From Callorhinchus milii (lineage: Eukaryota): a stretch of 64,000 nt of DNA. The number at the start of each line of letters is the position of its first letter. Within the stretch, counting starts at the first letter, position 1. The notes beneath the pieces were generated by a model that saw nothing but the letters and a program-made list of their open reading frames with translations, ran no database searches and had not been told where the DNA came from. Shown here in pieces: positions 20,544-41,677 of this stretch. The stretch is from the NCBI RefSeq assembly GCF_018977255.1, contig NW_024704742.1:70186001-70250000 (forward strand). Direction: 5' to 3'. The translations under genes were made by a program, and so were the position numbers.

Positions 20544-21401
20544 NTCACTCTCCAAATAATATATTTTTTTAAAGACTCGGGTGGAGTATAAACGCCAGCG
20601 CAGACAGGTTGGATCTTGTGGCCTGTTTCCCTGCTGTAAAGTCTTTGTTAATCTTTTGAAAGGTACCCTGTCTGTGAGTGTCGTGAAACCCCCACTATTT
20701 GTGAACAAAGAAAATCGCACTGTTCTAGTGAACAAAGCCCCCCCACCCCGTGTCCGCCCACATTAAGCATCGGTTAATTCCAGGAGACAGCTTTGGCAGA
20801 GTCTTTTGACAAGGTAACAATTTTCCTTGTCAACGACTTGATTAGCTGTGTGTTCTCAGCGACTCAGAAGTAGGCAAAGTTGAAAGCCTCACAAGCAAGA
20901 GGACCAGGGTTTGATTCGCAGACAGAATGAAACCATAGGCAAGCTTCTTTATTCTACATGACTGTTTACTTAGCAGTAAGTAGGAACCTGGTTGTTAGTC
21001 GATTGGTGGATTGCTTTCCGGGGGTAATAATTCCTTCAAAAAATAATAATAATAATAATTTGGTCACTTCAATCCGCGACTGTTTGTGGGCTGCTGCTGT
21101 GCACAATTGGCTGCCATGTTTCGCCCACAAAAATATACAGTCAATTCACTTTACAGTATATTCTGTGAAGCGCTTTGAGACGTCTCAAAGACGTGATGAG
21201 GTGCTATATCAAATGCAAGGATTATCACTGTAAAGTGGAGTAACTGTATCGTATGGGCGATTGACCACAAAACTCGCAGTCTCTTCAGAATGATGGCGCC
21301 CAAGCCAAAGCAACACTTCCTCCAGTGCTGCGCTGGAGCATCACCTTATCTGCACTGAGTGCTGACTGCACCCTCGCTTGCTTGTTTCCATGCTCTTGCA
21401 G

Positions 21402-21540
21402 GTCGGCTTCCTGAAGATTAGCCACAAGTACGAGATCAGCTTCACTTTGCCAGCCGTCCGCAGCTTGGGCCGGGAGCTGTGTGCCGCCCCCATCCCACAT
21501 CTTCACTTGAAAGTGGTGGATATCTCCCCTGGCACTGATG
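21402..21540 (+). CDS. ADISSP: ADISSP coding exon 3
   Basis: CTCTTGCAG acceptor; VGFLKISHKYEISFTLPAVRSLGRELCAAPIPHLHLKVVDISPGTD matches human VGFLKILHRYEITFTLP...LHLKL; donor GTCAGT, phase 1. Confidence 0.96.
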
Positions 21541-22019
21541 GTCAGTTCACAGTCTGTCCCACCCAAGCCCCATCACCGCCCCTTCCTCCCATCACCGCCC
21601 CTTCCTCCCATCACTGCCTCTACCTATCCCCCTCATCCCCTCCCATGCACACCTACCATCACCATTCCACCCACCCCCCCCCCTTCACCTATCACAACTC
21701 CTGCCCTCCCCCATCCTTACCATACTCCATTGGCGGCAGTAGCTCAGCGAATCACAACATTTTATCCTGGCACGTCAAAGTACCTCACAGGATAATAATA
21801 ATAATCCTTGCATTTGATATAGCGCTTTTCACATCAGCCGTCGTCCCAAAGCGCTTCACAGAACACACTGTAAAGAGAATTGTGGCAGCTGCTTTGCACA
21901 CAGCACAATAATGATCCCCCTCACCTGCGCCGTTTCCCAAAACACTAGTTTTATCCAGGAGAAACTCCCTTCTCTTTTGCACATAGCACAGCAGGATCTT
22001 TAACGTACACCTGAACACA

Positions 22020-22535
22020 ACACCAAAATTACATTTGTAAAACACCTTTCATGTGGGGAGGATGTCCCAAGATGCTGGAAAGTCAGAGTTTCGGACCCGA
22101 GCTTGGGGTTGGGGAGGGTGTAGGGCAGAGGGGGAAGTGGGGAGATCGAAAGCACGGTCGAAGAGGAGGGTCTTGAGATAGGTCCTGAAAGTGGCAAGGG
22201 AGGGGGCGAGGCAGAGAGACTGTGGGATGGAGTTCCAGAGGGTGGAGGCAGAATGGTAGGTCCACCTGCCAATAGTGGGACGAGCGAGGCAGGGGATGTG
22301 AAGCAGGCTGGAGCCCGCTGAGCGGAGGGTGCGAGCAGGATGGTAGGGGGTTAGGAGGTTGCTGAGGTAGGGGGGAGCAAGGCCATGGAGAGCTTTGAAG
22401 GTGAGGACTAGGATCTTAAACTGTATCCTCTGTGTGATGGGAAGCCAGTGGAGTCGGCCAAAGATAGAGGTGATAAGGTCACAGAGCCTGGTGCGGGAGA
22501 TGACGCAGGCTGCAGCGTTCTGGATGATCTGCACA
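22020..22535 (-). mobile_element. L2 LINE 3' fragment
   Basis: IQNAAACVISRTRLCDLITSIFGRLHWLPITQRIQFKILVLTFKALHGLAPPYLSNLL...LWNSIPQSL...FRTYLKTLLF, followed by the 3' tail. Confidence 0.9.
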
Positions 22536-24270
22536 GGCAAAGACGAGGCCTGGGTTTAATGTCTCATGCGAAGGATGGAACTTTGTGTGTCAGTAACTTG
22601 GTTGATAGCACTCTCGCCTCTGAGTCATAAGAGTGTGGGACTAAACTGAGGTCCCATCTGCCTATCCAGGTGGATGTTAAAGATCCCACGGCACTATTTA
22701 AATGAAGAGAAGGGAGTTTCCCAGTGTCCTGGCCAACAATCCCCCAAAATAAAATTAGTCACTCACTCCATGGCTGTTTATAGCACGCTGCTGGGTGCAA
22801 TTTGGTTGCTGTATTTCACCCACAAAATATAAAGATAATTCCACCTTCATCCTATGAAATGCTTTGAAACATCTCAATGATGTGATGAGGCACAAAATTT
22901 AAAATAAAAAATGCAAGGATAGTTTTAGCTCCCCCTTGCACTCCCTATCACTGCCCTGGAGGCCAGCCTGGACTATGTGAGTTCAAAGTCCTGACATGGG
23001 GGGCTTGAACCCATAGCCTTCTGACTCTGAGGTGAGAGTGCTACTGACTGAGCCAGGCTAACACTTTAACATCCTTGTCCTAGTCTTAAATTGCTCCACT
23101 ATCACACTGCACTGCAGGTGACAGCCTGGCACAGGTGGTCACGCTCTCATCTGCAAGTCAGGGGCTCTGTGTCCAGATTTATCTTTCCGCGGCAAGGTAA
23201 TAGCTTCTCAAAAGGAGAATGTTACTAGGCAACAGACATTTTATGGATTGGCACACTGAAGAAATGTACTTCTGAGACGTGTGGTGGAGAGCCCAGATTA
23301 CTGTATACTTGTTTAAATCTTTCTCTCATTCAACCCTGTCCCTGCCACTCCTCCTCTTAAAAGACCTCCTGGGCTTTCATCCACCAAATATACAGTCAAT
23401 ACATAGGAACAGGACGAGGCCATTCAGCCCCTCGAGCCTGGTCCACCATTCTATAAGATAATGGCTGATCTGTACCTCAACTCCAATTACCTGCTTTTGC
23501 CCATATCCCTTGATACCCTTACCTAATAAATATCTATCCACCTCTTTACAGTATATTCTGTAAAGTGCTTTGAGATGTCTCAATGACGTGATAAGGTGCT
23601 ATGTCAAATGCAAGGATTATTATTATAAGTAAGGTGGCAGAGGTGATGTATTGTGAGTTTTGCTGGGGAAGTAGATGGGCATATGAAGGATAGAGGCTTG
23701 AGGGGGGGGTTTGGGGATGGGGCAGTAGATTGAATGGACAGTTTGCTCTGAGAGCCGGAGCTGAATGGCCTCCTTCTGTGCCTTAAACTTCCTCAATTCT
23801 GTTCCCTCATGGATTTAAGTTCACGATCAGTCCACTTTGCAGTATATCTTCAAAGCACTTTTGAGACATCACAACGACGTTATAAGGCGCTATATCAAAT
23901 GTAAGGATCATTATTGCTATTACATAGCTTGCTTGTGACTGCTGATTTCCTCCTTTGCTGCGAGTGATGAGGATTCCCTGCAGGGTGCCAGCAGATTTGT
24001 CCCTGAGGGAGGAGCAGCAAGCGGCACTCTTCTCCGGCTCGTCCGTCACGGACGCCCAACATGTCCCGTCTTGAGACCCACCTCTTTCGGTCGTCTTTCC
24101 CCTCCTCTCGGCTCCCCGCCCCGACTCGCGTTCCTGGTCAAAAGTCGTGCAGTGCTTCGAGACGTCCTCCCAACTTGAAAGGCGTTTAAGTGTGAACTGT
24201 ATTATACAAGTGCTGAATTGCTTGCTGTCGGGGCGGTGGCTAAGCCATGTTCACCTCTTGTTGCCTGCAG

Positions 24271-24393
24271 GTCACAAGGTCAAGTGTGAGTACCTGGCCC
24301 ACAAGGAAGGGGTGGTCAAGGAAGACCTGAAGTTGACCAGCGAGATGTCTGACAACCCCTGTGTGAAGGTGGTGATACAAGCTCGTGTCCTGG
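24271..24393 (+). CDS. ADISSP: ADISSP coding exon 4
   Basis: GCCTGCAG acceptor; GHKVKCEYLAHKEGVVKEDLKLTSEMSDNPCVKVVIQARVL matches human VKCEYSAHKEGVLKEE...CVRVTVQARVM; donor GTACGT, phase 1. Confidence 0.96.
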
Positions 24394-24459
24394 GTACGTG
24401 AGCGCTCCGAGGGCAACCACATAGTCAACCTTAAAAAGGGCTTCTGCTTGAGTTTTTGG

Positions 24460-24955
24460 ACAGCAGGGTGTCTGATGCAAATGGAAACCCATCACCATGC
24501 TTAAGAGTATTCAAATCAAACTGAGAATTCAATCCATCCCACCTACACATGGAAATCCCAGAGATAGATTGTTGGAATAGAATGCGACTCTCCCTGGAGG
24601 GACACAGCCTGTTTACCTAATTCCAGAAAGTATTAGGTGCAGGTTGGCAAGAGCCAAGGCTTGGGGACCGCAGAGTGTATGTTGGGGTAACTGCTGGAGT
24701 CTAACCAGCTAAAAACGCAGCTTGCTATTGATAGCACTGTTCGGCAAGCTTTCCCACTGCTTGTCCCTGCTAGGACCATCCTACCCATTAGGGCTTTGGC
24801 TTGCAGGGTTAACAGGAGCTGAGCAGGATGACTTCCTACCCCCAATGACTGGTCTGACCTTCCAGGTCCAGCCGATGAGCTAGGCTGGGGTGTGCTGTCT
24901 TCAGCAATGCCCTGGAATACTGCGATCTCACCTGGTGCAGACCTGGGACCTTGTT
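24460..24955 (-). mobile_element. Family D repeat
   Basis: Reverse complement of the blocks seen at 16-17 kb and 37.8-38.2 kb. Confidence 0.75.
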
Positions 24956-26734
24956 GAAGTTGACAAGTCTCTGATTGGGATTGAGATGCATTCAAATACT
25001 TCAGGATAGCAGGACTTGTACATGTGTTCAGGCCTGCGAGAGACATCCCAGAGATTTATTTATGGTACCTGATGCATGAAGCCCATTGCTGTGCTTAAGA
25101 GGCTCCACTGGGCCGGACGGGAGAATGGATTAGAGTAGTGAGCAGCAGCAAAGACACCACGAAAATGAGGCCAGTCGGATTTTCATCCATTCCGCCCCCT
25201 GCTCTCTGGAACTCCATCCTCGATGTCCGCTTACTTGCTAAAACCCCCTCACCTCATTCCAAGTCCGTCTCAAGACGTCGGAGTCCTGTAATGTAGTGGT
25301 TAGCCATTTGTAGAGCACTGCTGTGTGCAATTGGCTGCTGTTTCGCCCACAAAATACACTCCAATTTAAAATATATTCTGTGAAATGCTTTGAGACGTCT
25401 CAACAACATGATAAGGCGCTATATCAGTGTGGAAAGAGGAGATCAAATGGGCCGCAGGACTGTCTTCAATCGAATGCTAAGTAGCAGAGCTGGTGCAGTT
25501 AAAGGCTGGGTACAATGCTGTATATGAATACGGCTGGCTCCCAGCCAGTTGTCAGCATTGTGTGTGAGAAGGAGATTGCTTTGTTCACTTGAAAGACTTT
25601 CTGACAGCAGGAAAACAATTTATTAAACTCCACCCTGGTTTAACTTGTCACAGCCACTAAAAACATCACTGTCAAAATCCCAACCGCATTTATTTATGTA
25701 TTTATACATATGCCTAATAATAGTAGTAATAATAATCCTTGCATTTGATATAATGCCTTATCAAATCATTGAGATGTCTCAAAGCGCCTCATAGAATGCA
25801 CTGTAAAGTGAATTGACTGTATATTTTGTGGGCGAAAGACGGCAGCCAATTGCACAATGGCTAACTTGCCATATAGGGGTGATAACTCTGATAACTCATC
25901 ACAAGTTATCAGAAGTTTACAGTACATATATACAGCGTCTTTCACATCAGGGGGACGTCCCAAGGATGTCAAATGTTTGAACCTAAGCTGGGGGTTGGGT
26001 GATGGTGGGGGGGTTGTTGGGAGGTGGTGGAGAAAGACGACTGAAGGTTTGTTCAAAGAAGATGTCTTGAGATGGACCTTGAGGGAGACAAGGGGAGGGG
26101 GCAAGGCAGAAGGACTCTGAATGATTGATAAGAAGCAAAAGAAATTAGGAGGACTCATGTAATTTATAAACCCTGTCATTGGGGGGGAGAGAAGTTTAAT
26201 GGGAAAAGGGATGAAATAGATTTAATAGATGAAAATGATGGGAAGATCCTTATTAATAATAAATAATATAAATCCTTGCATTTGAAAGCACCAGGAAGAC
26301 GTCCTAAAGCACTTCTTAGGATTTGGGCTTCTGTCCAACAGCAACAACTTGCAAATATATCGCCCCTCACGCAGGGCATCTCCCCTCACGCAGCCATGAA
26401 GTGAGTGAGCAGCGTTATATTGGAGTGTATTGGTTCAAAGTCCTGACGTCAGGACTTGAACCCACAGCTTTCTTACTTGGTGGCGAGAGAGCTACCAATG
26501 GAGCCAAGCTGGTATTTGACTTGCGAAAACAGTGGGAGTGGTGTTGGTTTAATGGGAGATTGCCCGGTGGGTGGGTGGGTAATGGAAAGGAGAGTCCCTT
26601 GTTGCATGAGGTGGTGAAAGCACGACCTCTCTGGTTTTGTCCTGGGTTTGAGATGTAACAGACAGCGGTAGAAAGGAGTACGACAGAGCCCCAGGTAACA
26701 GACGGTTAGACCTGTCCTTTCCCACCGCTCAGTA

Positions 26735-27480
26735 GGCTCCAGCCTGCTCCACGTCCCTCATCCAGTGCTCTTCACCCCCCCCCCCCCTGCCCCTCCCAAC
26801 CATACCCCCACTGGTGGTTGGGCCTCCAGCTTCTTTGCCTGCACCCTTTGGAACTCCTTCCCACAGTCCCTTTGTCTCGCTCCCTTGCTTTCCTCCTTCA
26901 AGGTATGTCTCAAGACCCTCCTATTCGACCGTGTCTTTGGTCACCCTCCCTGTCCTCCATCCCCTATAATCCCAACCACCAGCTCGGGGTGTAATCCTTG
27001 GGACCAGCTCCTTGGGACATCGTCCTGACGTGAAAGGCGCTACACATGTAATTTGTTGTCTTGTGTAGCCAGCCACGTCCAGGGTGACACAGGACACTCT
27101 ATGGTTACTGGTGGCCGCTCACATCATTGTGCTTTGTCACCAGAGCGAGTGTGTCGCATGCCCATCACCCCAGTCCTCCACTGGCTCCGTGTCTCCCAAC
27201 CAATTCAAGTTCTTCGCCCTCACGCCCAAGCACCCTCCTACCTCACGGACTTGCTCATACCCCGTTCTTCTGCCTGTTCCCCTCCGCTCATCCAACACCT
27301 CCCTCGACCTCTCCCTCTGCACCACTCCTAAGCGGCTGAGCCTTCAGCCATTGCAACCCAGCCTCTGGCACTCCCAGCCTCTGGCGCTCGTCCCACTTGC
27401 CCCTCTATCTTCAAATCTCACCTGAAGAACTAATTCTGTAACCCCACGTATGGTCGCCTCCCCCTTCTCCTTGGCTCGGT
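26735..27480 (+). mobile_element. Two degenerate L2 3' fragments in tandem
   Basis: LWNSFPQSLCLAPLLSSFKVCLKTLLFDRVF plus tail, then PITPVLHWL...PSYLTDLL. Confidence 0.65.
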
Positions 27481-27619
27481 CTCCAATCCTCTCATTGCCA
27501 TGTAAACAAGCTCTTGTTCTATAAGGACCTCTGGGATTTCTTTTGTTGCCTTTGCTGCCACCTGTTGGCAGAGATGGTGAAGTGCTGCCCTCCTGTTACA
27601 AGTGCACATCTATGTATAC

Positions 27620-28020
27620 AATACAAAATGACATCTGTAAAGCATCTTTCATCTCGGGAGGACATCCCAAGGCGCTGAACAGTCAGGGATTAGGACCCGA
27701 GAGGGGTGGGATCACGGAGGGTGGAGGGTGGCCGATGGAGGGTCTTGAGACATGCCTTGAAGGAGGCAAGGGACGGAGCGAGGCGAAGGGAATGTGGGAT
27801 GGAGTTCTAGAGGGTGGGGGCAAAGAGAGGCTGAAGTCCGACTGCTCATGGTGGGCTGGACCGGGTGGGGGACATGGAGTAGCCCAGAGCCTGCCATGAC
27901 AGGTTGATAAGAGGTTAGCAGGTTGGAGAGGTAGGAGGGGGTAAGGCCATGGAGGGATTTGAAAGTGAGGACTAGGATTTTGAACTCGATCCTCTGAGGG
28001 ATAGGGAGCCAGTGGAGCCG
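27620..28020 (-). mobile_element. L2 LINE 3' fragment
   Basis: RLHWLPIPQRIEFKILVLTFKSLHGLTPSYLSNLL on the minus strand. Confidence 0.85.
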
Positions 28021-28252
28021 GGGTGGCACTTTCACATTGCTATGCACAACTAACTCCTGTGTTTTGCTCATAAAATCACAGTCAATCCACTTGACAGTAT
28101 ATTTTGTGAAGCGTTTTGAGACGTCTCAATGATGTGATAAGGCGCTATATTAAATGTAAGGATTATTAAATGTGAGGATGATTATTATATTGGGGGTGGG
28201 GAGAGAGACTGCTCTACCGGTTTTTGACTCACCTCCTCTGCTCTGGTTTCAG

Positions 28253-28353
28253 ACCGGTTACATGGGACCCCCATGTTGTTGGAGGGCGTCAAGTGCGTTG
28301 GCACAGAACCTGAATACGACTCGGAGCAAAGCGACTGGCAGGGATTTGACTAG
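28253..28353 (+). CDS. ADISSP: ADISSP last coding exon (spliced CDS 519 nt, 172 aa)
   Basis: GGTTTCAG acceptor; DRLHGTPMLLEGVKCVGTEPEYDSEQSDWQGFD* matches the human C-terminus DRHHGTPMLLDGVKCVGAELEYDSEHSDWHGFD*. Confidence 0.97.
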
Positions 28354-28953: not shown

Positions 28954-29955
28954 TCCACCTTTTGGACTCCCTATCGCTGAATGGATCAATTTCAAGTTTC
29001 TCACACTCGTGTGCAAATCACTTCACTCCCTGTCAAGAAGGGTCAGTTGACGATTGGTGTGATCGAAGAAGTAGGTTTTAAGATAATAATAATCCTTGCA
29101 TTTGATACAGCGCCTTATCACCTCTTTCACAGTGTGTACTATAAGGTGAATTGACTATATTTTGTGGGTGAAACACAGCAGCCAATTGCGCACAGTAGTG
29201 TCCCACAAACAGTGAAACAGTGAGTGATTACATTTTTTGAAGGGATTATTATCCTCTGAAAAACCGATCTGCCAATCAACTAACAACCAACTACTTGCTG
29301 CTAGGTAAACAGAGGTATGTGGGCTTAAGGAAAGTTGCCCAACATTTCACCCTGGTGGGAATCGAACCTAGGCCCTCTCACTTGCAAGGCAAGTGCTCTA
29401 ACCACTAAACTATAGGACTCCAAGATGGCATTTAAAGACAGTGGAGTGGGCAAAGAGACAGAATGGTAGAGGGAAACAGGGTAGGGACTGAGTGGTAGAG
29501 GGTGGAAGGGAGTTTACAGAGACTAAGGCCACAGGAGCTGAGGGTTCAGCCACTGATGGTGACAGAGTGGACAACAACAAATTACATTAACATAGCCAGT
29601 CAGGAGGATGGGAGGATGCACAGCAAATGCAAGTCAGCTGAGCGGAGGAGTGGGGTAGAGATCATCGGAGAGATCGAGAAAAAACTGTTGGAATGAATGG
29701 GCGTGAGGAAGAAAGGAGAGCTGGGGAGATCGCACCGCGGGATGGAAACTCAACAATTAGTATCTTTAATTTCATTTTTATTTTAATGTGGAATCACAGG
29801 GCTAGAGCCATACAGTAGTCATTTCCTTCCGCAAGCACAGCTTGCTCACAACATTGGTGGGAAATACCGCAAGCCATATCATGGCCTCAAATAATCTCTT
29901 ACTCCATTTGCACCTTTTGTCAGTTGCAGACCAGAAATCAGACATTTAATAATAA

Positions 29956-31758: not shown

Positions 31759-32962
31759 GTTGGTGTAGTGACTGCGTTTATAGGCAAGCATGGCAGCAAT
31801 TTTGCTTACCCAATTATTATTAGTCAGTCAGGTGTCCACATGTGGAAAGCCATCACCGTGCTTAACATTTATCCAAACCAGGCACAGAGAATTCCATGCA
31901 TCCCACCTTCACATAGAAATTCCTGCATCTTGGAATGGTATGTGCACTCTCTCTCCAGAGGGAACCACTCTGCTTACCTAATTCTGGTGAATATGAGCCA
32001 TGAGAGCCAAGGCTCTTGGGGGTGGGGGGGAGGGAATCCCAGAGTATGCCTGGAGGAGGGGTTAACTGCTGGAGTTTAACCAGCTAAAACCACATAGCTT
32101 GCCATTGAGAGCACTATCTGGCAAACTCTTTGGAAATGCTGCCTTTAACAAGGAAACTGGGATAATGTGGGAGCCAATCCATTTATGGAATACACAGTCA
32201 CTACACTTCACAATAAAATCCCGTGAAGGGCTTTGAGACACGATATGTCACGGCGTCAAGGATTGTTATAGCTTAACTGATCATGCCAGGTTCTAAACAA
32301 AACACTCGATAAATAAAAGAATAAATATTAAATACATTATTATTCTGTTGCAAGCAAATTACTGCATAATAAATAGAATTCGATTGAGTTTTGACTATAT
32401 GATCTCAACAAATTAATTAGTGACTATTCTGAACAAGAAAGCTTAACTGAACTGTGTCTATCAATTGTGTGTTGATAAAGAAGTTTATAGTTAAAATAAA
32501 ATGTAAATATCTGTCGGTATGTTCTGTCTGGTTTGTGGATCTGCCTTGTTGGAATGAGTTCGGACATTGATCGGTCTAAAATGCACGAGGGGCTGAGTTC
32601 ATCAGCTATTAGCCCAACCTGCATTTTACGCACTTGTATCTTGTGTATTTATATTTGTGCATGGGGTGTGAATGTGTGTGAGTGAGTAAATGTGTGTCTG
32701 AGTATGAAAGAGTGAATATTTTTCTGTTCATTGTTTGCTGTGACTGAGTTGATTGTGAATGAATAAGTGTGAAGGAGTGGGTTATACTCTGTTGTGACCG
32801 AGCTGAGTGTGTGTGTGTTTGTTTCTGTTCACACTGCTGTGACCGAGCTGACTGTGTGTGTATGTGTGTGGGAATGATTGATTGAGTGAGTATGTGTGTG
32901 TGAGTGTGAGCAAGTGTTTTTCTGTTCGCTCTGTGCTGTGACTAAACTGACTGTGTGTGGGT

Positions 32963-33140
32963 GAGTGATTGTGTGTGTGTCCGAGTGATTGTGTTTGTGT
33001 CCGAGTGATTGTGTGTGTCCGAGTGATTGTGTGTGTCCGAGTGATTGTTTGTGTCCGAGTGATTGTGTGCGTCCGAGTGATTGTGTGCGTCCGAGTGATT
33101 GTGTGCGTCCGAGTGATTGTGTGTGTCCGAGTGATTGTGC
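32963..33140. repeat. 18-bp minisatellite (GTCCGAGTGATTGTGTGT), 9 copies, inside a TG-rich tract at about 32660-33320
   Basis: CCGAGTGATT counted at 32981, 33001, 33019, 33037, 33055, 33073, 33091, 33109 and 33127. Confidence 0.92.
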
Positions 33141-33332
33141 GTGTGTGACTGTGCGTGTGTGTGAGTGATTTTTGTCTGTGTGACTGTGTGTGTGTGACTG
33201 TGTGTGTGTGGGTGACTGTGTGTGTGTGGGTGACTGTGTGTGTGTAGGTGACTGTGTGAGTGACTGTGTGTGTGTGTGTACCTGAGTGTGTGTGAGTTTG
33301 TGTCTGTTTGCTCTGTGCTGTGACTGAGCTTC

Positions 33333-33476
33333 TCAATGTCGTACATTGCATGTTTGGTAGATGCTCCATTCGCTCCAGGGGGAGTTCAGGAAACTGTCCT
33401 TGGCTCGGATGCAAATCTTCACAGCCTTACACTTGTGCACCTGAACACCCTCCATACTGATGCCCTCTTGTATCTT
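33333..33476 (-). CDS. IL12B: IL-12/23 p40-like last coding exon (FnIII D3 end with WSxWS)
   Basis: KIQEGISMEGVQVHKCKAVKICIRAKDSFLNSPWSEWSIYQTCNVRH* aligns with p40 [22 protein letters not shown]; no transmembrane segment follows. Confidence 0.92.
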   Translation of the reverse strand, partial: KIQEGISMEGVQVHKCKAVKICIRAKDSFLNSPWSEWSIYQTCNVRH

Positions 33477-33953
33477 CTGTTTTCCCCACATGTAATTAAA
33501 AATAAAATCATCATCATGACAAGAACATCAACTCACACTCCAATTCCCTGCCCATTTCACTCTCCTTTCACACGTCAGTGAACAGGGACTCTTCCCTATT
33601 AGCTCCTGTTAACCCTGCAAGCCAAAGCCCTAACGGGTAGGGTGGTTCTGGCTGTATAAGCAGCAGGAAAGCTTGGCAGACACCGATACCAATGGCAAGC
33701 TATGCGGGTTTAGCTGGTTAGCAGTTACCCCAACGCACACTCTGGGGTCCCCAAGCCTTGACTCTTGCCAACCTGTGCCCAATACTCTCTGGAATTAGGT
33801 AAGCAGAGTACATCCCTCCAGGAAGTGAGAGGAAGAGTGCACATTCCATTATCCACACAGGAAAATAAGCTTAGAAATCTATTAAGAAATAACCCAGGAA
33901 TCCCAACCTCCACCTATCGCTGAACTTTCATATCTCCTTCAGGCTTCACTTAC

Positions 33954-34114
33954 CGTTTTGTTCTTCGAGGAGTTCCTTATTGGACTGTAAGAGATCTGGA
34001 AGGTCAGGGGAAAGTAGGAATGTGGCTTGGGCCATTCGGCCGGATATTCCCACCTCGCGTTCAGCTTGCAGTTCGTTATTGTGCACTTTATCGCCTGGGG
34101 TGGGTCTGGCTTGA
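33954..34114 (-). CDS. IL12B: p40-like coding exon 5 (D3 start)
   Basis: IKPDPPQAIKCTITNCKLNARWEYPAEWPKPHSYFPLTFQISY... aligns with p40 IKPDPPKNL...WEYPDTWSTPHSYFSLTF; acceptor ACACAG, donor GTAAGT, phases 1/0. Confidence 0.95.
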
Positions 34115-34848
34115 CTGTGTCATAGAGAAGGAAAGAGAAGAGAGAATAAGTACTTGTTCAAACATTTTCCAATTGTACGTAGGAGCACATAGCAGCAGCA
34201 CAAGGTGGGGGGAGGAACGTGTCCACCTGTACCGAACTCCGTACCCTCTCACCCCAGTCCTTGTCAGATCCCCTGGCTCCCTGTTGCAATATGGATCAAT
34301 TTAATTTGGGGGATTGTCAGCCAGGACACCGGGGGAGAAACTCCCTTCTCTTTTAGAATAGCGCCGAGGGATCTTTAACGCCTACCTGAGCAGGCACAGA
34401 TGGGAACTCAGTTTAATGTATCATCCGAAGGACGGCACCACCGAGAATGTTGCACACCCCTAGCGCTGCATTGGAGCATCCGCTTGGGCTATGTGATTCC
34501 AAGTCCCATCGTGGGGCTTCAACTCACAACTTTCTGACTCAGAGGTGAGAGTGCTACCATTGAGCCAGACTGGCATAGTGTGGAGAGCTCCATATGTATA
34601 AGCAAACTTTACCCTTCTCCCTTGCATGTCCCCCTGACCTCACCATCGCAGGTAATGCTACCTACACACACCGCCACCGCCCCCCCCAATCCCGGCTGGA
34701 CCTCCATCCCAGAGCTTCTCTCCCTCTCCTTTCCCCTCCTCAAAACCTTCCTTTTCGACCACACCTTCAGACATCCTCCCATCACACATTCCCGTTGCCC
34801 TTCACCCCTCTTAACTCCAACCCCTAACTCGGGTGCAAACAATAAAGG

Positions 34849-35163
34849 TTGAGACCTGTAGCTCAGTGGTTAGAGCACTCACTTTGCAAGCGAGAGACCT
34901 GAGTTCAATTCCAGGCAGAGGGCGAAACCTTGGGCAAGTTTCCTTACTCCACACGCCTAATAATAATCCCTCCAAAACCCAAAACAATAATAAATTGGTC
35001 ATTTTCAATCTACGACTGTTTGTGGGACATTGCTGTGCGCAATTGGTTGCCGCGTTCGCCCACAAATATATAGTCAATTCACTTTACACTGTGTTCTGTG
35101 AAGTGCTTTGGGACATCCTCCCGACGTGAAAAGCGCTATATCAAGTGCGAGGATTATTATATT
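34849..35163 (+). mobile_element. tRNA-derived SINE family A
   Basis: Full-length copy in an intron of the p40-like gene. Confidence 0.9.
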
Positions 35164-35353
35164 AAACACCTTTACTGTCCAGCGCCTTGGGTAATTTGTT
35201 GTTGTTGCACTGACGGGATCTCCAGTACTGACACAATAGGTCAAATGACTTCCTTCTGCCCTGTAAATTTCTACAATTCTATATTTGTCCCAAATCCCCT
35301 CCACTTTCCTCCCCCCAGTCTGTCGCCCAAGGCTTGGAATGTGTGACACTCAC

Positions 35354-35549
35354 TGATGTCACGGATGTAGAAGGGAACTCTGATGCTCTGGTAGGAGACT
35401 CGGTTGATGGCCTCCAGGTGAAATCAATGGGTTTGTATTCCTCTGCGTAAGATGAGAAGCTGGAATCAACAAAGCTGGCCTTGTAGTCAAGGCCTGAACT
35501 GGAGTAATTCACCTGATTCGGCTCACACTCCGACTTCAGTGTAGAGTTC
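35354..35549 (-). CDS. IL12B: p40-like coding exon 4 (D2 second half; gene exon 5); contains a 1-nt frameshift near 35417 in this sequence
   Basis: NSTLKSECEPNQVNYSSSGLDYKASFVDSSFSSYAEEYKPIDFT, then in a shifted frame EAINRVSYQSIRVPFYIRDI (p40: [31 protein letters not shown]). The exon is 196 nt but phases 2/1 require 197. Confidence 0.88.
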
Positions 35550-36138
35550 CTGAAGGAGAGTAAGAAAGGGAGGGAGGAAGAGAGAGGCAAGATCTCCAAT
35601 TAATGGACATTAAATTCACTTACGTTTACTGTGCATCCAAGTCCTAGCTGGACAAGCAGTAGGAAATAATAATTCTTGCATTTGATATAGCGCCTTATCA
35701 CGCTATTAAGACATCTCAAAGTGCTTTACAGAATATACTGTAAAGTAAATTGACTGCATATTTTATGGGCAAAACACGGCAGCTAATTGCGAACAATAAT
35801 ATCCAACAAACAGCCATGGATTGAGTGACTACATTTCTTTTGAGGGCATATTACTCCTGGAAAGTGATCTGCCAAGTGATTAACAATCAGGTTTCTACTT
35901 ATTGTGAGGTAAACAGAGGCACATGGAGTAAGGAAACTTGACTATGGTTTCGCCCTGCCAGGGAATCAAACTTGGGTGCTCTCACTTTCAATTAATTTGG
36001 TTAGTCAATGCACAAATTACAGTCAATCACTTTACAATATATTCTGTGAAGAGATTTGAGAAGTCTCAACGATGTGATAAGGTTTTAAATCAAGTAGAAG
36101 GATTATTATTATCTTGCTATTATTATTTTAGGCGTTAC

Positions 36139-36232
36139 CTTCTGCAGTACTTCACCCGAAACAAGGAATTGTTGGATTTGGTTTTCCATGAGCAGGTGAC
36201 CATTCCATTGAAGTTCCTGGAGATGCACTTCA
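36139..36232 (-). CDS. IL12B: p40-like coding exon 3 (D2 first half)
   Basis: VKCISRNFNGMVTCSWKTKSNNSLFRVKYCR aligns with p40 LRCEAKNYSGRFTCWW...FSVKSSR; acceptor CTTTCAG, donor GTAACG, phases 1/2. Confidence 0.93.
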
Positions 36233-36404
36233 CTGAAAGCAGATAAGAAACCAAGCATTACCTCTGTGTCTCTCTCCTGGTTGCCCCTTTCTCTCCTCAC
36301 AAGATCAATGAAGAAACCCTTTTGTCCCATCTGATCTTGTCCTGTCCTTCCAAAATCTCCACCCTTCCCACACTCCCATCGCAGCATCAACGTTTTCTTC
36401 AATG

Positions 36405-36978
36405 AGTCCTGCCGATGAGCCAGGCTGGGCTATGTTGTCATTAGCAGTGCCCTGGAATACTGTAGACTCGCCTGGCTCAGGAATCAGATTAGAGACCGTC
36501 ACAGAGGGCGGGCTCGATTCCAACATTCCGTTGCCAAATATGTTGTCACCTTGAGCCAGTTCAGCTCCAAGGAAACCCCTCTAACCTCCTACCCAAGGAG
36601 GACAGTCACTGGTTGGTCATTAGACATCCAACCAGTTCAGGTTTGAGCCCTCACTCGGTGGTTATCTCCCAGTTGCTTATAAAGTTCTCTATCAATGGCA
36701 AGCTGTGCAAGTTTAGCTGATTAGACTCCAGCAGTTACCCCAACGCACACTCTGGAGTCCCAAGCCTTGGCTCATGCAACCTGTGCTTATTACTTTCCGA
36801 AATTAGGTAAGCAGGATGCTTCCCTCCAGGGAGAGAGCGCACATTCCATTCCAATAATCCATCTCTGGGATTTCCATGTGTAGGTGGGATGCATGGAATT
36901 CTCAGTTTGGTTTGGAGACTCTTAAGTATGGTGATAGGTTTCCACATGTGTCAGACACCAGGCTGACCCCCAAAAAAT
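36405..36978. mobile_element. Family D repeat with inverted 5' half
   Basis: 36405-36665 is the reverse complement of the 5' half; 36690-36978 is the 3' half in + orientation ending CTGACCCC(A)n. Confidence 0.7.
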
Positions 36979-37039
36979 AACTGAATGAGTGAGTAGCACA
37001 CTCAAGGTGAACTGAGTGAGTGGAGGGGAGGCTTCTCAC

Positions 37040-37288
37040 CTCCGTCGCTCTCGAAGATGGGCGGTTTGTCTTCTTCAGTGATGAAAAGGTACGTGTGGGC
37101 GACCACCACCCCATTCCTCATGCATGTGTAATTGCCTGCGTCCGGCTGGTCAGCATTATTGATGATCAGCTGGCCAGAGGCTCCGACTGTTCCTCCCTGG
37201 ACTGCCTCCCCGTCTCGCAACCATATGACCTCCTCACTCAGGTTGTCGCAGCTCAAGTTGGCGACCATGTTCCTCTCCACTGTCCTGA
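37040..37288 (-). CDS. IL12B: p40-like coding exon 2 (Ig-like D1)
   Basis: RTVERNMVANLSCDNLSEEVIWLRDGE...GQLIINNADQPDAGNYTCMRNGVVVAHTYLFI aligns with p40 VVLTCD...ITW...[30 protein letters not shown]; acceptor TTGCAG, donor GTGAGA, phases 1/1. Confidence 0.93.
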
Positions 37289-37784
37289 CTGCAATCAGAT
37301 AGGACAGAAATGGGAAACAACATCAACGTTAACATCAACAACATCAACACCATTAATATCTACAAAGATATGAGCAACAACACCAACATCAAAAACAACA
37401 ACAACTGTGCATCCTATCTACCCCACCCCCCACCCCCCCCCCCCCCCCCCCCCCCCCCAACCCATTATTTTACATATCTCTATCATATCCCCTCAGAGCT
37501 CAAAAAAAAGCCCCAGTGTATGAAGCCTTTCCCTGTAACTGTACTTCCTCATTCCAGGCAACATAGGACAGCAATGAGGTCAGGATGTGTTGGGTTTACG
37601 GTCAAGCATTCTGTTGCTCACTCAAACATAACCACCTACGTATTACCGCAACGTGTCAGTGGGCACAGAACCAGACTCGAGTACGAGTCAAACAACAAAC
37701 TTCAGGAAAAACACACATGTCTTGTCATTCTTCTCTTGGCCACTAGATGGGGCACAAATAGATGGGAGAGAGTGTGGTCACTAT

Positions 37785-38182
37785 AGTCACTGGGGGCGGG
37801 GAATCCTCCCATTCAGCTCCTGTTAACCCTGCAAATCAAAGTCCTAACGGGTAGAGTGATTCTAGCTGGACAAGCAGCGGGAAAGCTTGCCAGACAGCAA
37901 TATCAATAGCAAGCTATGCTGTTTTAGCTGGTTAGACGTCAGCAGTTATCCCCAACTCACACTCTGGGGTCCCCAAGCCTTGGCTCTTGCCAACCTGCGC
38001 CTAATACTTCCCAGAATTAGGTAATCAGGATGTGTCCCTCCAGGGAGAGAGCGCACATTCCATTCCAGCAATCTATCGCTGGGATTTCCATGTATAGGTG
38101 GGAGGCATCAAATTCTCAGTTTGGTTTGGATACTCTTAAGCATGGTGATGGGTTTCCACATGTGTCAGACACATGGCTGGCC
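37785..38182 (+). mobile_element. Family D repeat, well-preserved 3' part
   Basis: AGTCACTGGGGGC...CAGCTCCTGTTAACCCTGCAA...GTGTCAGACACATGGCTGGCC. Confidence 0.78.
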
Positions 38183-40176
38183 CTCCACACGCAAAATAAA
38201 AAAATGCACTATGGTCAACATTAACAACTATAATAATTGCATTTGATATAGGGCCTTATCAAGTCATTGAGACGTCTCAAAGCACCTCATAAAATATACT
38301 GTACAGTAAATTGACTGGATATTTATTTTGTGGGCGAAAGACGGCAGCCAATTGCACAAAGCAAACTCCCACAAACGATCATAGATTGAAGGGACCAATT
38401 TTTTTTTGCAACTACAAGAACTTGCATTTACATAGCATCCTTCACATGAGTTAGAGTCTCAATTTAAGCATGGCGATGAGTGTGTCTGCATGTGTCAGAT
38501 AGCTGGCTAACCAAAACAAAATGACCAAAAGTGTGTGTGGTGGAGGAGTTACGTTTTTGAGACTTAATAATAATAATCCTTGCATTTGTCGTTGAGACGC
38601 CTCAAACCGCTTCACAAAATATACTGTAAAGTGGATTGACTGCATATTTTGTGGGCGAATTGTGGCAGCCAGTTGCATACAGCAATTTTCCACAAACAGT
38701 CGTGGATTGAGTGACCAAATTATTATTAATTTATGGAAGGGATTATTACCCCTAGAAAGTGATATGCCAATTGATTAACAACCAAGTTCCTGCTTGCTGC
38801 TAGATAAACAGAGGTGTGTGGAGTAAGGAAACGTGCTTAAGGTTTCGCCCTGCCTGGGAATCGAACCCAGGTCCTCTTGCTTGCGAGGCGAGTGCCCTAA
38901 CCACTGAACTATAGTAATACTAACGCCAGCCCTTCTGTGGAATATCAGACAGGACAGTGCGAGCTCAGAGCTCCTGATGGTAATAATAATGGGTGAGCTG
39001 AAAATGAGTTGGAAGTTCACCAAATGCAAACTGTCGGTAACATTAAAGTGGGCTGTGCGTGTCTTCGGAAATACTGTGAGTGTCTCTCGGCTGGTAAAGG
39101 TCATAAGAGAAATTAGTCTCATTCTAAACATTCTGCCACTGTTATCTTTGGATAAATTGCCTGCATTATGAAACTGGCTGATTTCCGCTTTTCATCAGCC
39201 TGGTTCAGTTCCTTGAACACAAAACACTCTGCAACTTTCAGCAAATTCTATTCGAAAGCATTGGCCAAAAAAAGCACACTTTACAGTCAATACTCCCCTA
39301 ATAATAATATTAATAACAATAATTCTTGCATTCAATATTGCACCTTATTGCTTCATTGAGACATCTCAAAGCGCTTCACAGAATACATCCAGCGCCTTGG
39401 GATGTCCTGCTGATGGGGAAGGCGCTATACAAATGTAATTTTGTATATTGTAAAGTGTGTATTTTGTTGGTGAAATGTGGCAGCCAATTGCGCACAGCAG
39501 TGTCCCACAAACAGTCGTGGATTGAGTAACCAAGTTATTATTATTTTTGGAGGGGAGGGATTTGATGGCACATGTCATGCTGTGTGTAGTGTATTCCTCA
39601 GTCTCTCTGCCTTGCCCCTCTCTTCCCATTTCAAGTGCCACCTGAAAACCTTCCTCTTCAATCATTCTTACGGCCACTTTCCCCCCACACCCCTGGCTCA
39701 GAGTCAGGCTCCACCACTGTTAAGCACTCTAAGATGCTACCCTGCGTGGAGGGTGCTGTATAAGTGCAAGTTGTTGTTATTGTGTTTGTGGTTATGACTC
39801 CTAGACCCATGTAACCAGTGGCCAAGCTGACCACCATATCACTGTGGTGTGTTTCAGGATAAGATTTATATGTTTGGAGGCATCCTCTCCATATTAACAT
39901 TGGGCAAAATGATAATAAATCACAAAAAGCACCTTTCCTGTCAGGAGGACATTTCAAAGCAAAGCGCTTCCCAGGATTTTACTGTAAAGGATCAGGTCCT
40001 GTGATATTGTCATCTTCCCACCCCCACCCCTTGGCTCCCATTGCCTCTGAATTGAACCCCCCCAGCTCAAGGGCAAACTCTCAAATGTCCAGCATCTTAA
40101 GATGTGAAAGACACTGTAAAAATGCAATTTGTTGAAGTTGTTATTCAGTGAGTAGGTACAAGACAGGATTACTTAC

Positions 40177-40249
40177 AATTCTTTGGAAACATAAACAGAC
40201 AGTCACCAGTAGAGAGAGAAAGGAGCAGGTAAATTGAGAAAGGCCACAT
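40177..40249 (-). CDS. IL12B: p40-like first coding exon (signal peptide)
   Basis: Strong acceptor TTTCCTTCTCTCTCCAG immediately followed by ATG, as in mammalian IL12B exon 2; MWPFSIYLLLSLSTGDCLFMFPKN-F is signal-like; donor GTAAGT, phase 1 compatible with the D1 exon. Confidence 0.88.
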
Positions 40250-41677
40250 CTGGAGAGAGAAGGAAAGAAACACATTAATACTGTGTACTTAAATATATTT
40301 ATATTATTAACAGAGAAATACTCCTTGCATTTCAGAACTTGAGGACGTCTCAAAGCGCTTCAGGGGGTTTACTCTTAAGTGTAAGTGTGTTTTGTGGGCA
40401 AATGTGAGTGAAGTGAGTGAACAATTTTATCTGGGGGATTGGGAAGATGAGTGGATCTCGAGGACACAGGGAGAGAGAAACGTCCTTCTCTTTCATCATG
40501 GGATCTTTAACGTCCTGAACAGGGAATGGACGGGACCACAGTTTAATGTTTCATCCAAAGGACGGCACCTCCGACAATGCAATGCACCTCCAGCACTGCA
40601 TTGGAGCATCAGCTTAAGAACATAAGAACTTAAGCATTTGCTGGAAGGTCCATCTAGTTTGCCTTCCACCATCCTGGCAGTCACTTGACATATCATGTCC
40701 CAAACTATATACTGTATCCCAAGATATTATTTTCTAACAGAAATCTATCTACTTTGTTCTTGAAACAAACAACATTCTCTGCTTTCACTGTCTCCCCAGT
40801 GAGCCTGTTCCATAACTTTACTACTCGCTCACTAGTGATTCTGCAGATTTGTTCTGAATTTCCGCCCCTGAGCAGTGAAAATATTGTAGATGGAGTGAAA
40901 TCTCACAACTTTCTGACTTAGGGGCGAGAGTGTTACCGACTGAGCCATGTGCTGACATCTAGCATAAACGCAAACTTTGATGGGATTTCAATGCTCTCCC
41001 AGTCTAATAATACTCTATCATTATAATTAATATTCCATTTTTTTTTAGCACTGTATTTTTTTGAAATGCCTCAGTGCATTTCACAGATAATCACTAACCC
41101 GTGGAGCAACTTTATTTTGTGGGAAAAAACATTTGCATCATTAAGCTCACTTGAAGTGAATCTGGGGGATTGCTGGCCAGGACACCGGGAGAAATTCCCT
41201 TCTCTATTTGAATAATTGGAATCCTGTAGCTTAGTAGTTAGAGAACTCACTTCACAAGCGAGAAGACCTGGGTTTGATTCCCAGCCAGGGTGAAACGTTG
41301 GGCAAGTTTCCTTATTCCATTAAGTAGCTAGCAGTAAGTAGGAGCCCAGTTGTAAGTCGATTGGTGCAACATTTACAATCCCTTTCCAGCAGTAATAATT
41401 GCTTAAAATAATAATTTAAAAAAATAATATTTTGTGGGTGAAACGCAACAGCCAATTGTACACAGCAGTGTCCCACAAACAGTTGTGGAGTGAGTGACCA
41501 ATTTATTATTATTTTTTTTAAACTGTAAAGTGGTTTTGCGAGTGTAACTTGGCAGCCAATTGTACGGAACCTCTGACAATACAGTGTACACCCCCTGTCC
41601 CCTCCATCCCAGCACAGCAAGGAAATGTCAGCCTTTAAGTCCCTGTAAATATCCTTGTAAGCAGTTAAATAATTTTG

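What the first reader, a model, noticed from the sequence alone, without database searches (positions are those of the whole stretch)
33333..40249. An IL-12/23 p40-like cytokine subunit beside ADISSP: possible ancient IL12B paralogue lost in mammals
Seen: six exons give a secreted Ig+FnIII+FnIII protein of about 305 aa with p40 motifs (DAGxYTC, AEE, FYIRDI-IKPDPP, WEYP..W..PHSYF, WSEWS) and intron phases 1,1,2,1,0; it is convergent with ADISSP, with stops about 5 kb apart. Known: those phases match human IL12B, which lies with UBLCP1/RNF145/EBF1/ADRA1B on 5q33, while ADISSP lies on 20p13, which also carries ADRA1D and EBF4. Inference: this may be a whole-genome-duplication ohnologue of IL12B in the sister paralogon, possibly related to divergent fish p40c-type genes. 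That would imply an extra branch of IL-12-family heterodimers in cartilaginous fish.
Basis: partly seen in the sequence, partly recalled or inferred. Interest (0 to 1): 0.82.

Follow-up and report, generated by a model that had tools for sequence, protein, structure and literature searches.

The report
Ancient second IL-12 p40 gene
Beside the gene ADISSP, the elephant shark carries a second copy of the immune-signal subunit p40, which probably split from the ordinary IL12B gene before sharks and bony vertebrates parted and which no mammal is known to keep.

Summary
Window 33333-40249 (minus strand) holds a six-exon gene for a secreted Ig + FnIII + FnIII protein of 305 aa, with GT-AG introns in phases 1,1,2,1,0. 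It is convergent with ADISSP, and the two stop codons lie 4,980 bp apart.

The genome is Callorhinchus milii. The gene is already annotated there as 'interleukin-12 subunit beta-like' (XP_007906151.1). The window has a one-base frame break in exon 4. Contigs from three public runs and the older RefSeq protein carry the missing base, so intact copies exist.

A second p40 gene lies on contig C13 with the same intron phases, and it groups with bony-vertebrate IL12B (99/95). The window gene does not. With eight elasmobranch orthologues it is sister (92/85) to a clade of 'IL12B-like' genes from lungfish, amphibians, reptiles, birds and ray-finned fishes, which includes teleost p40c.

Both shark loci sit in matching gene neighbourhoods, each with GFRA, CDC25, PANK, EBF and RNF145-type genes. 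The window's neighbourhood also holds ADISSP and a SPEF1-type exon, as at human 20p13.

So the ohnologue reading is supported. However, the lineage is not shark-specific, orthology to p40c is favoured but not proven, and function is inferred. The scan had not noted this gene before.

The parts
40177..40249 (-). Exon 1: ATG and signal peptide (MWPFSIYLLLSLS...), ends in phase 1
   Evidence: The sequence has a GT donor. The N-terminus resembles that of elasmobranch orthologues, e.g. MWSFSLRLLIS in P0007. That this is a signal peptide is inferred; no predictor was run.
37040..37288 (-). Exon 2: Ig-like domain D1 (LSC ... DAGNYTC), phase 1 to 1
   Evidence: Pfam Ig_3/ig hits. This exon is 99-100% identical to C. 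milii 'interleukin-12 subunit beta-like' proteins.
36139..36232 (-). Exon 3: start of FnIII domain D2 (VKC...VTCSW), phase 1 to 2
   Evidence: Weak IL12p40_C hit on the exon alone. It falls inside the PF10420 match of P0002, residues 77-156.
35354..35549 (-). Exon 4: rest of D2 (YAEE ... FYIRDI), phase 2 to 1. As assembled it is 196 nt and out of frame by one base.
   Evidence: Searches show two frames. RefSeq protein P0002 reads PIDFTLEAINR straight through.
35417..35418 (-). Site of the one-base gap in the window's assembly
   Evidence: table 4: a T is put in behind + strand position 35417 in one contig each of X1, X2 and X5. With it the CDS is 918 nt and open, and matches P0002 at 274/274 positions.
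33954..34114 (-). Exon 5: first half of FnIII domain D3 (IKPDPP ... WEYPAEWPKPHSYFPL), phase 1 to 0
   Evidence: The exon is 57% identical to its counterpart in the C13 p40 gene.
33333..33476 (-). Exon 6: end of D3 with RAKD and WSEWS, then TGA
   Evidence: The Asp and both Trp columns are conserved.
21387..28353 (+). ADISSP (DUF4517) gene, convergent neighbour. Three domain-bearing exons were seen; the stop is at 28351-28353.
   Evidence: PF15006 matches. Translation of the last exon.
32948..33307 (.). TG-rich 18-bp tandem array starting 26 nt beyond the p40 stop codon (3' UTR or downstream)
   Evidence: Tandem Repeats Finder: period 18, 19.7 copies.

Best explanation
This is the elephant shark's member of a second, ancient lineage of IL-12/IL-23 p40 genes. 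It is a real and, in the species, intact gene for a secreted beta-chain made of an Ig domain plus a two-FnIII cytokine-binding module.

Origin. It arose together with IL12B from a duplication that predates the split of cartilaginous and bony vertebrates. The duplication was most likely one of the two early vertebrate genome duplications, because the two shark p40 genes sit in matching paralogous chromosome segments. C1 resembles human 20p13 and C13 resembles human 5q31-q34. The lineage most probably equals the one called p40c in teleosts and 'IL12B-like' in lungfish, amphibians, reptiles and birds. No mammalian member was seen.

Inferred mechanism. Like p40, it is secreted and clasps a four-helix alpha chain (p35- or p19-type), using the conserved pocket Asp near WSEWS. 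The resulting heterodimer is then presented to IL-12Rbeta1-type receptors. Because the Cys that links p40 to its alpha chain is a Ser here, the pairing would be non-covalent. Alternatively the protein may act alone as a monomer or homodimer.

Shown: gene structure, family membership, fold, the two loci, the tree and the synteny. Inferred: secretion, partners, receptor use and any role in immunity.
For: Family membership:
- Pfam IL12p40_C scores 42.4 bits against a cut-off of 25.
- The best 13 PDB sequences are all p40; IL-11Ralpha comes next at E 3e-13.
- The AlphaFold model has pLDDT 91.3. All 28 listed Foldseek rows at ranks 1-41 are p40 chains, with TM 0.63-0.73.

Orthologues: eight elasmobranch proteins at 43-51% identity.

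Second locus: the C13 gene has six exons, the same intron phases 1,1,2,1,0 and the same junction positions, and is 34% identical.

Careful ML tree, 54 rows x 292 columns, rooted on IL6R/IL11RA/CNTFR:
- p40 as a whole: 100/100
- window clade: 100/99
- canonical IL12B including the shark C13 clade: 99/95
- 'like' clade including p40c: 99/94
- window clade + 'like' clade: 92/85

AU test: holding all shark p40s in one clade costs 21.7 lnL, p = 0.0045.

Discrete characters shared with the 'like' clade:
- Trp after the second Ig Cys: 7/8 (window clade) and 18/19 ('like' clade), against 1/20 in canonical IL12B.
- Trp two residues after WSxWS: 7/8 and 14/17, against 0/19.
- Second Cys of the second D2 disulfide: 0/7 and 0/19, against 20/20 in canonical IL12B and 8/8 in the outgroups.

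Synteny:
- C1: PANK 68.52, CDC25 69.46, GFRA 69.66, CH_2 (SPEF1-type) 70.16, ADISSP 70.21, p40-like 70.22, EBF 70.67-70.73, RNF145-type 70.76 Mb.
- C13: PANK 6.61, SLU7 7.46, GFRA 10.74, CDC25 10.79, RNF145-type 12.44, EBF 12.49-12.64, p40 13.40 Mb.

p40c identity: Carassius 'IL-12 p40c1/c2' proteins are 63% identical to P0136, a member of the 'like' clade.

Pocket Asp: kept in 8/8 of the window clade.

Function of the relative: a trout p35/p40c recombinant is bioactive (PMC4929537, section 5.4 read).
Against: - In the larger, quick 83-row tree, window clade + 'like' clade had only 43% SH-aLRT. There the AU test did not reject one clade of all shark p40s (lnL difference 13.9, p = 0.215).
- In the 54-row set, the window clade as sister to canonical IL12B is not rejected (lnL difference 2.5, p = 0.141).
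- I chose the 54 rows after seeing earlier trees.
- C. milii itself has Met and Tyr at the two Trp sites that mark the lineage.
- VPS16, which I recall as lying near EBF4 at human 20p13, is on C6 and not on C1, so collinearity is partial.
- An RNF145-type gene lies near the window gene too. Taken alone, that would suggest a 5q33-like locus.
- The map position of the 'like'/p40c genes in other species could not be checked.
- The window's own copy has a frame break. In X1 and X2 about half of the depth at that site lacks the extra base.
- The interchain Cys is absent. A grass carp study modelled p40c as unable to form the disulfide-linked heterodimer (PMC8481787, passages).
- Human map positions and residue numbers are recalled.
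Confidence: 0.7

Rival explanations
1. A third, separate early-vertebrate ohnologue. The window clade is an ancient paralogue of IL12B but is not orthologous to the bony-vertebrate p40c/'IL12B-like' clade. Sharks lost one lineage and bony vertebrates lost the other.
For: Window clade + 'like' clade is below the 95% mark (92/85; 43 in the 83-row quick tree). The AU test does not reject the window clade beside canonical IL12B (p = 0.141). Four EBF-bearing segments exist (C1, C7, C13, C28), so up to four p40 ohnologues were possible. Synteny of the 'like' genes was not testable.
Against: This reading needs one more duplication and two more losses. Three discrete characters are shared by the two clades, one of them derived relative to the outgroups. 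The ML topology joined the two clades in all three IQ-TREE builds; the first FastTree overview left them unresolved.
Confidence: 0.15
2. A duplication of IL12B special to cartilaginous fishes, with one copy evolving fast and drifting out of the IL12B clade in trees.
For: In the 83-row quick analysis, the AU test did not reject a single clade of all shark p40s (p = 0.215). Both shark lineages lack the interchain Cys.
Against: The 54-row careful analysis rejects it (p = 0.0045). The two loci lie on different chromosomes inside segments that each carry their own GFRA, CDC25, PANK, EBF and RNF145-type genes. The window locus keeps ADISSP and a SPEF1-type exon as neighbours. The window clade shares characters with the 'like' clade rather than with shark IL12B.
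Confidence: 0.07
3. A dying gene: the frame break in exon 4 is real and the locus is a pseudogene, or a null allele, in the elephant shark.
For: The window sequence lacks one base, and everything after residue about 170 is out of frame. In X1 and X2, part of the depth at the site lacks the inserted base (9 of 19.3 and 6.7 of 10.8 carry it).
Against: The older assembly's RefSeq protein is intact. One contig in each of three runs carries the base. There are no other stops, and all splice sites are intact. Orthologues are conserved in eight elasmobranchs.
Confidence: 0.05

Closest known systems
Teleost IL-12 p40c (carp, ginbuna p40c1/c2, trout, grass carp; zebrafish si:dkey-88e18.2) and the automatically named 'interleukin-12 subunit beta-like' genes of lungfish, amphibians, reptiles and birds
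   Same: - Sister clade in the ML tree (92/85).
- Shares with the window clade the loss of the second Cys of the second D2 disulfide.
- Also shares, with the window gene's elasmobranch orthologues (7/8), a Trp after the Ig Cys and a Trp two residues after WSxWS; C. milii itself has Met and Tyr there.
- The ray-finned and lungfish members also lack the interchain Cys.
   Different: Only 25-31% identical to the window protein. The first Cys of the lost disulfide is still present in the shark clade, whereas most 'like' members have Trp near there. Tetrapod members keep the interchain Cys (10/19). Their chromosomal position was not checked.
Mammalian IL-12/IL-23 p40 (IL12B; PDB 1F42, 1F45, 3DUH, 6WDQ)
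   Same: - Same three-domain fold; best sequence and fold matches.
- WSxWS motif, AEE and IKPDPP motifs, and the pocket Asp are kept.
   Different: About 27-33% identity. There is no interchain Cys (Ser instead) and no second D2 disulfide. The locus is different (beside ADISSP), and the gene is outside the IL12B clade.
The elephant shark's own IL12B orthologue at C13:13402099-13407130
   Same: Six coding exons with identical phases and junction positions. It also lacks the interchain Cys. It is linked to EBF- and RNF145-type genes.
   Different: 34% identity. It groups with bony-vertebrate IL12B (99/95), keeps the second D2 disulfide, has WSEP instead of WSEW, and has Glu at the pocket Asp position.
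IL-6R alpha, IL-11R alpha, CNTFR alpha and EBI3 (soluble or alpha-type class I cytokine receptor chains)
   Same: Ig + cytokine-binding-module architecture. They are the next best sequence and fold matches.
   Different: Much weaker matches: E 3e-13 or worse, against 7e-34 for p40. They are separated from all p40s at 100/100 in the tree.

Membership tests
IL-12/IL-23 p40 family (Pfam PF10420-bearing beta chains) | Pfam IL12p40_C match above the curated cut-off | tested here: met
   P0002 scores 42.4 bits against a cut-off of 25, residues 77-156.
IL-12/IL-23 p40 family (Pfam PF10420-bearing beta chains) | Ig-like D1 followed by two FnIII domains; no membrane anchor; WSxWS near the C-terminus | tested here: met
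   The model is all-beta with pLDDT 91.3. The best 28 listed fold matches are p40 chains. WSEWS is followed by only 10 residues before the stop. Absence of a TM helix is read from the sequence, not predicted by a tool.
IL-12/IL-23 p40 family (Pfam PF10420-bearing beta chains) | Falls inside the p40 clade when IL6R/IL11RA/CNTFR are the outgroup | tested here: met
   p40 is monophyletic at 100/100.
IL-12/IL-23 p40 family (Pfam PF10420-bearing beta chains) | Acidic residue of the pocket that takes the alpha chain's Arg (human Asp290; numbering recalled) | tested here: met
   Asp in 8/8 of the window clade, 18/18 filled cells of the 'like' clade and 17/18 of bony IL12B.
IL-12/IL-23 p40 family (Pfam PF10420-bearing beta chains) | Cys that forms the interchain disulfide with p35/p19 (human Cys177; numbering recalled) | tested here: not met
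   Ser in 8/8 of the window clade and 2/2 of shark IL12B, against Cys in 18/18 of bony IL12B. This is a feature of bony-vertebrate IL12B rather than of the whole family.
IL-12/IL-23 p40 family (Pfam PF10420-bearing beta chains) | Forms heterodimers with a p35- or p19-type chain | not testable with these tools
   No shark p35/p19 protein could be handed to the complex predictor, because a spliced model from the genome is not accepted.
IL12B orthology group (canonical p40) | Groups with tetrapod and ray-finned IL12B in trees | tested here: not met
   It lies outside the 99/95 IL12B clade, which holds the C13 gene instead. The AU test of one shark clade gives p = 0.0045 but p = 0.215 in the 83-row quick set.
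IL12B orthology group (canonical p40) | Both disulfides of domain D2 kept | tested here: not met
   The second Cys of the second disulfide is absent in 7/7 of the window clade. It is present in 20/20 of canonical IL12B and 8/8 of the outgroups.
p40c / 'IL12B-like' lineage | Sister to, or inside, the clade that holds named p40c proteins | tested here: inconclusive
   Sister at 92/85, 84 and 43. The rival placement beside IL12B is not rejected (p = 0.141).
p40c / 'IL12B-like' lineage | Lineage-marking residues: Trp after the Ig Cys, Trp two residues after WSxWS, and loss of the D2 Cys | tested here: met
   All three are met in the 7 elasmobranch orthologues. C. milii itself meets only the Cys loss, having Met and Tyr at the two Trp sites.
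p40c / 'IL12B-like' lineage | Same chromosomal neighbourhood in other vertebrates | not testable with these tools
   No other vertebrate genome is held. No paper found gives the position.
Early-vertebrate (2R) ohnologue pair with IL12B | The two genes lie in segments that share several other paralogue pairs | tested here: met
   GFRA, CDC25, PANK, EBF and RNF145-type genes occur on both C1:68.5-70.8 Mb and C13:6.6-13.4 Mb.
Early-vertebrate (2R) ohnologue pair with IL12B | Both lineages present in cartilaginous and in bony vertebrates | tested here: inconclusive
   This holds if the window clade and the 'like' clade are one lineage (see above). IL12B itself is in both groups.

The most novel reading that the evidence does not exclude
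The ancestor of jawed vertebrates already had two p40 beta chains, made by genome duplication: IL12B, and a second one ('IL12B2', the p40c lineage) beside ADISSP. The second has been kept for over 400 million years in sharks, ray-finned fishes, lungfish, amphibians, reptiles and birds, and was lost only on the way to mammals. It lacks a domain-2 disulfide, and outside the tetrapods also the interchain cysteine. It would therefore build a parallel set of non-covalent IL-12/IL-23-like cytokines, or p40-only signals, with their own receptor use. If so, teleost p40c is not a product of the fish-specific duplication, as the grass carp paper states for fish p40 paralogues in general.
Probability: 0.45. 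Interest if true: 0.7.

Novelty: new member of a known kind. Interest (0 to 1): 0.5.

Why it matters
p40 is the shared subunit of IL-12 and IL-23, the cytokines that steer Th1 and Th17 immunity, and it is a drug target in people.

Fish immunologists know a divergent 'p40c'. One paper I read puts the multiple fish p40 genes down to the teleost-specific genome duplication (PMC8481787, passage in its introduction). A 2025 survey of 405 species traces p40 back only to a bichir (PMC12162339, passages).

The shark locus gives a firm anchor for an older origin. There are two p40 genes in two paralogous chromosome segments, one of them sister to the p40c/'IL12B-like' clade. That makes a concrete question testable: what did the second p40 do in the first jawed vertebrates, what does it still do in birds, reptiles and amphibians, and why could mammals do without it?

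It does not reveal a new kind of molecule, and the gene itself is already in the databases.

Tried and rejected
Synteny and neighbouring genes:
- UBLCP1 by its NIF domain: 12 matches genome-wide, none near either p40 locus. This is not informative, because its exons are short.
- VPS16 as a 20p13 marker lies on C6, not C1.
- Pfam on 124 window ORFs of 75 aa or more, chosen from 146 (the 22 ORFs inside the finding's span, 33324-40132, were left out): only ADISSP was hit.
- Pfam on 140 ORFs of 112 aa or more from 116 kb of C1 flanks and 140 kb around the C13 gene. An earlier list of 397 ORFs of 85 aa or more was cut to these 140. Hits were LINE reverse transcriptases, one DEAH-helicase exon and one matrix-metalloproteinase gene; no 5q33 or 20p13 marker was found.

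Expression:
- No RNA holder was listed for the gene.
- Bins of the guessed-RNA runs X5 and X13 without cover say nothing.
- A 191-nt contig of X5 (guessed RNA) fits 35354-35509 and stops fitting exactly at the exon 4 donor, with 34 letters unplaced. This hints at a spliced transcript, but I could not see those letters.

Other searches:
- Earlier notes of this scan hold nothing on this gene or its relatives.
- Literature searches turned up no paper in the library that places p40c or 'IL12B-like' genes in sharks or tetrapods, or in a 2R paralogon. Subscription papers are not searched; I recall Wang and Husain 2014 and Huising 2006 as the likely places.
- The 371-aa ORF at 11137-12249 is two 33-bp minisatellites, not a gene.

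Not attempted:
- Complex prediction with a shark p35/p19, because no acceptable partner sequence was available.
- A fold of the C13 protein, because it is a spliced model.

Full report
**What is there.**
On the minus strand of window 33333-40249 lies a six-exon gene. The exons are 40249-40177, 37288-37040, 36232-36139, 35549-35354, 34114-33954 and 33476-33333. Every intron is GT-AG, and the phases are 1,1,2,1,0.

The protein is a signal-like N-terminus, an Ig domain and two FnIII domains ending in WSEWS. Exon 2 is 99-100% identical to three database proteins of Callorhinchus milii named 'interleukin-12 subunit beta-like'. So the species is the elephant shark and the gene is already annotated. 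The window is G000:C1:70186001-70250000.

**The frame break.**
As assembled, exon 4 has 196 nt, so AEE and FYIRDI fall in different frames. The RefSeq protein from the older assembly reads straight through (PIDFTLEAINR). Logan contigs of three runs carry one extra base behind + strand position 35417:
- X1: depth 9 of 19.3
- X2: depth 6.7 of 10.8
- X5: depth 2.5 of 2.5
- X13: no cover

With that base the model is 305 aa, and residues 32-305 equal the RefSeq protein at 274 of 274 positions. Intact copies therefore exist in the species. The window's gap is either an assembly slip or a null allele; the depth split in X1 and X2 leaves the second possibility open.

**Family.**
- P0002 passes Pfam IL12p40_C at 42.4 bits against a cut-off of 25.
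- Of 40 PDB sequences matched, the best 13 are all IL-12 subunit beta (E 7e-34 to 5e-31). IL-11Ralpha follows at 3e-13, then CNTFR, IL-6R and EBI3.
- An AlphaFold model built on a 47-row alignment has pLDDT 91.3 and pTM 0.80.
- All 28 listed Foldseek rows at ranks 1-41 are p40 chains of IL-12 or IL-23.

**Neighbour.**
ADISSP (DUF4517) occupies window 21387-28353 on the + strand.

**A second p40.**
Whole-genome searches with exon 5 and with P0002 find only one other locus, on C13. Using tblastn and splice sites, I built a six-exon model there of 339 aa, at C13:13407130-13402099, minus strand. It has the same phases and the same junction positions. The two shark proteins are 34% identical.

**Relatives.**
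- A word-indexed search gave 83 hits among 268 candidates. Eight were elasmobranch 'IL12B-like' proteins at 43-51% identity, followed by bird IL12B at about 32%.
- A full HMMER scan of 1.84 billion representatives gave 321 hits, of which the best 150 were listed.
- Names for 30 representatives came from cluster look-ups.
- A third search showed that ginbuna 'IL-12 p40c1/p40c2' proteins and carp 'Si:dkey-88e18.2' are 61-63% identical to the Triplophysa protein P0136.

**Trees.**
I built four, in order.
1. FastTree, 115 rows. This dropped representatives outside 150-560 aa and rows under 200 aa.
2. Quick IQ-TREE with the C20 mixture, 83 rows x 308 columns. I dropped fragments and four long-branch rows.
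3. Quick tree of 54 rows x 292 columns.
4. Careful tree of the same 54 rows. I picked these 54 rows after seeing the earlier trees, which is a weakness.

All trees were rooted on IL6R/IL11RA/CNTFR. The careful tree gives:
- p40 as a whole: 100/100
- canonical IL12B: 99/95, with the shark C13 clade (100/99) as sister to bony-vertebrate IL12B (95/96)
- window clade: 100/99
- 'like' clade: 99/94, holding lungfish, caecilian, newts, frogs, turtle, alligator, a bird, python, bichir, bowfin and teleost p40c
- window clade + 'like' clade: 92/85

In the 83-row quick tree that last join had only 43% support.

AU tests:
- All shark p40s held as one clade: p = 0.215 in the 83-row set and p = 0.0045 in the 54-row set.
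- Window clade beside canonical IL12B: p = 0.141, not rejected.

So the sequences place the C13 gene firmly as IL12B. They place the window gene firmly outside that clade in the careful set. Sisterhood to p40c is favoured but not proven.

**Discrete characters.**
- Trp after the second Ig Cys: window clade 7/8, 'like' clade 18/19, canonical 1/20.
- Trp two residues after WSxWS: 7/8, 14/17 and 0/19.
- Second Cys of the second D2 disulfide: 0/7, 0/19, 20/20, and 8/8 in the outgroups. Its loss is therefore a derived state shared by the two clades.
- C. milii itself has Met and Tyr at the two Trp sites.
- The interchain Cys is Ser in all 8 of the window clade and in both shark IL12B proteins. It is Cys in 18/18 of bony IL12B. 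In the 'like' clade it is Cys only in the tetrapod members (10/19).
- The pocket Asp is kept in 8/8 of the window clade.

**Synteny inside the shark genome (Pfam family scans).**
- EBF genes lie on C1, C7, C13 and C28.
- RNF145-type genes lie next to the EBF genes on both C1 and C13.
- PANK genes lie on C1, C13, C7, C24 and C377.
- CDC25 genes lie on C1 and C13 only.
- GFRA genes lie on C1, C13, C7, C28 and three other contigs.
- SLU7 lies on C13 and C7.
- A SPEF1-type CH_2 exon lies 45 kb from ADISSP.

From memory, human 20p13 holds GFRA4, ADISSP, SPEF1, CDC25B, PANK2 and EBF4. Human 5q31-q34 holds GFRA3, CDC25C, EBF1, RNF145, IL12B, SLU7 and PANK3. On that recall, C1 matches the first region and C13 the second. 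VPS16 on C6 shows the match is not complete.

**How it probably works (inferred).**
It is a secreted beta chain that pairs non-covalently with a p35- or p19-type helical chain, or acts alone. Two papers bear on this:
- A review reports that a trout p35/p40c protein induces IFN-gamma faster than p35/p40b and also induces IL-10 (PMC4929537, section 5.4 read).
- A grass carp study argues from models that p40c cannot form the disulfide-linked dimer (PMC8481787, passages).

**Novelty.**
Eight literature searches found no paper in the library that links p40c to shark or tetrapod genes, or to a 2R paralogon.
- PMC12162339 (passages) names a bichir p40 as the oldest.
- PMC6238376 (passages) treats the alpha chains in sharks, not p40 paralogues.
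- Subscription papers were not searchable.

I file this as a new, well-anchored member of a known kind.

Noticed in passing
G000:C1:70762429-70770021 (minus strand), 0.54 Mb from the window gene: A second RNF145-type (TRC8_N) gene sits next to the C1 EBF gene, mirroring the RNF145-EBF pair on C13. From memory, humans have no RNF145 copy at 20p13, so this looks like another ohnologue kept in the shark and lost in mammals.
   Followed up: partly
alignment A2; window exon 4 (about 35440) and C13 exon 4: All cartilaginous-fish p40 proteins examined, in both lineages (8 + 2), have Ser where bony-vertebrate IL12B (18/18) has the Cys that bonds p40 to p35/p19. Covalent IL-12 may therefore be an innovation of bony vertebrates.
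   Followed up: partly
window 11128-11533 and 11670-12435: Two GC-rich 33-bp minisatellites (12.5 and 23.5 copies) create a 371-aa open frame with no Pfam match. It is a repeat, not a gene.
   Followed up: yes
window 34856-34918 (+), 38854-38911 (-), 41221-41292 (+), 29347-29419 (-): tRNA-like heads of SINE-type repeats lie in the introns and flanks of the p40-like gene. The same bins have contig depths in the hundred-thousands to millions, so they are very abundant repeats.
   Followed up: partly
window 37183, 37220 (exon 2) and 37330, 37341, 37390 (intron 1): Contigs of X1, X2 and X13 agree with each other and differ from the window at two exon-2 bases, one intron-1 base, a 9-nt insertion and a 1-nt insertion in intron 1. 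These may be alleles or assembly differences.
   Followed up: no
L007:2073-4222 (minus strand) = C13:13372073-13374222: A matrix-metalloproteinase gene (Peptidase_M10 + PG_binding_1) lies about 28 kb from the shark IL12B orthologue. From memory, no such neighbour exists at human 5q33.
   Followed up: no
L026:6977-7321 (minus strand) = C1:70276977-70277321: A DEAH-box helicase exon (HA2 domains) lies 27 kb beyond the window's end. It is the next recognisable gene upstream of the p40-like gene, and its identity was not determined.
   Followed up: no
G000:C7:20519914-20523509: A second SLU7-like gene lies on C7, near that chromosome's PANK and EBF genes, besides the one on C13. From memory, SLU7 is single-copy in humans.
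   Followed up: no
window 37430-37480 (minus strand, intron 1): A run of about 45 G's, broken by a few T's, lies 150 nt upstream of exon 2. Contigs seem cut there.
   Followed up: no
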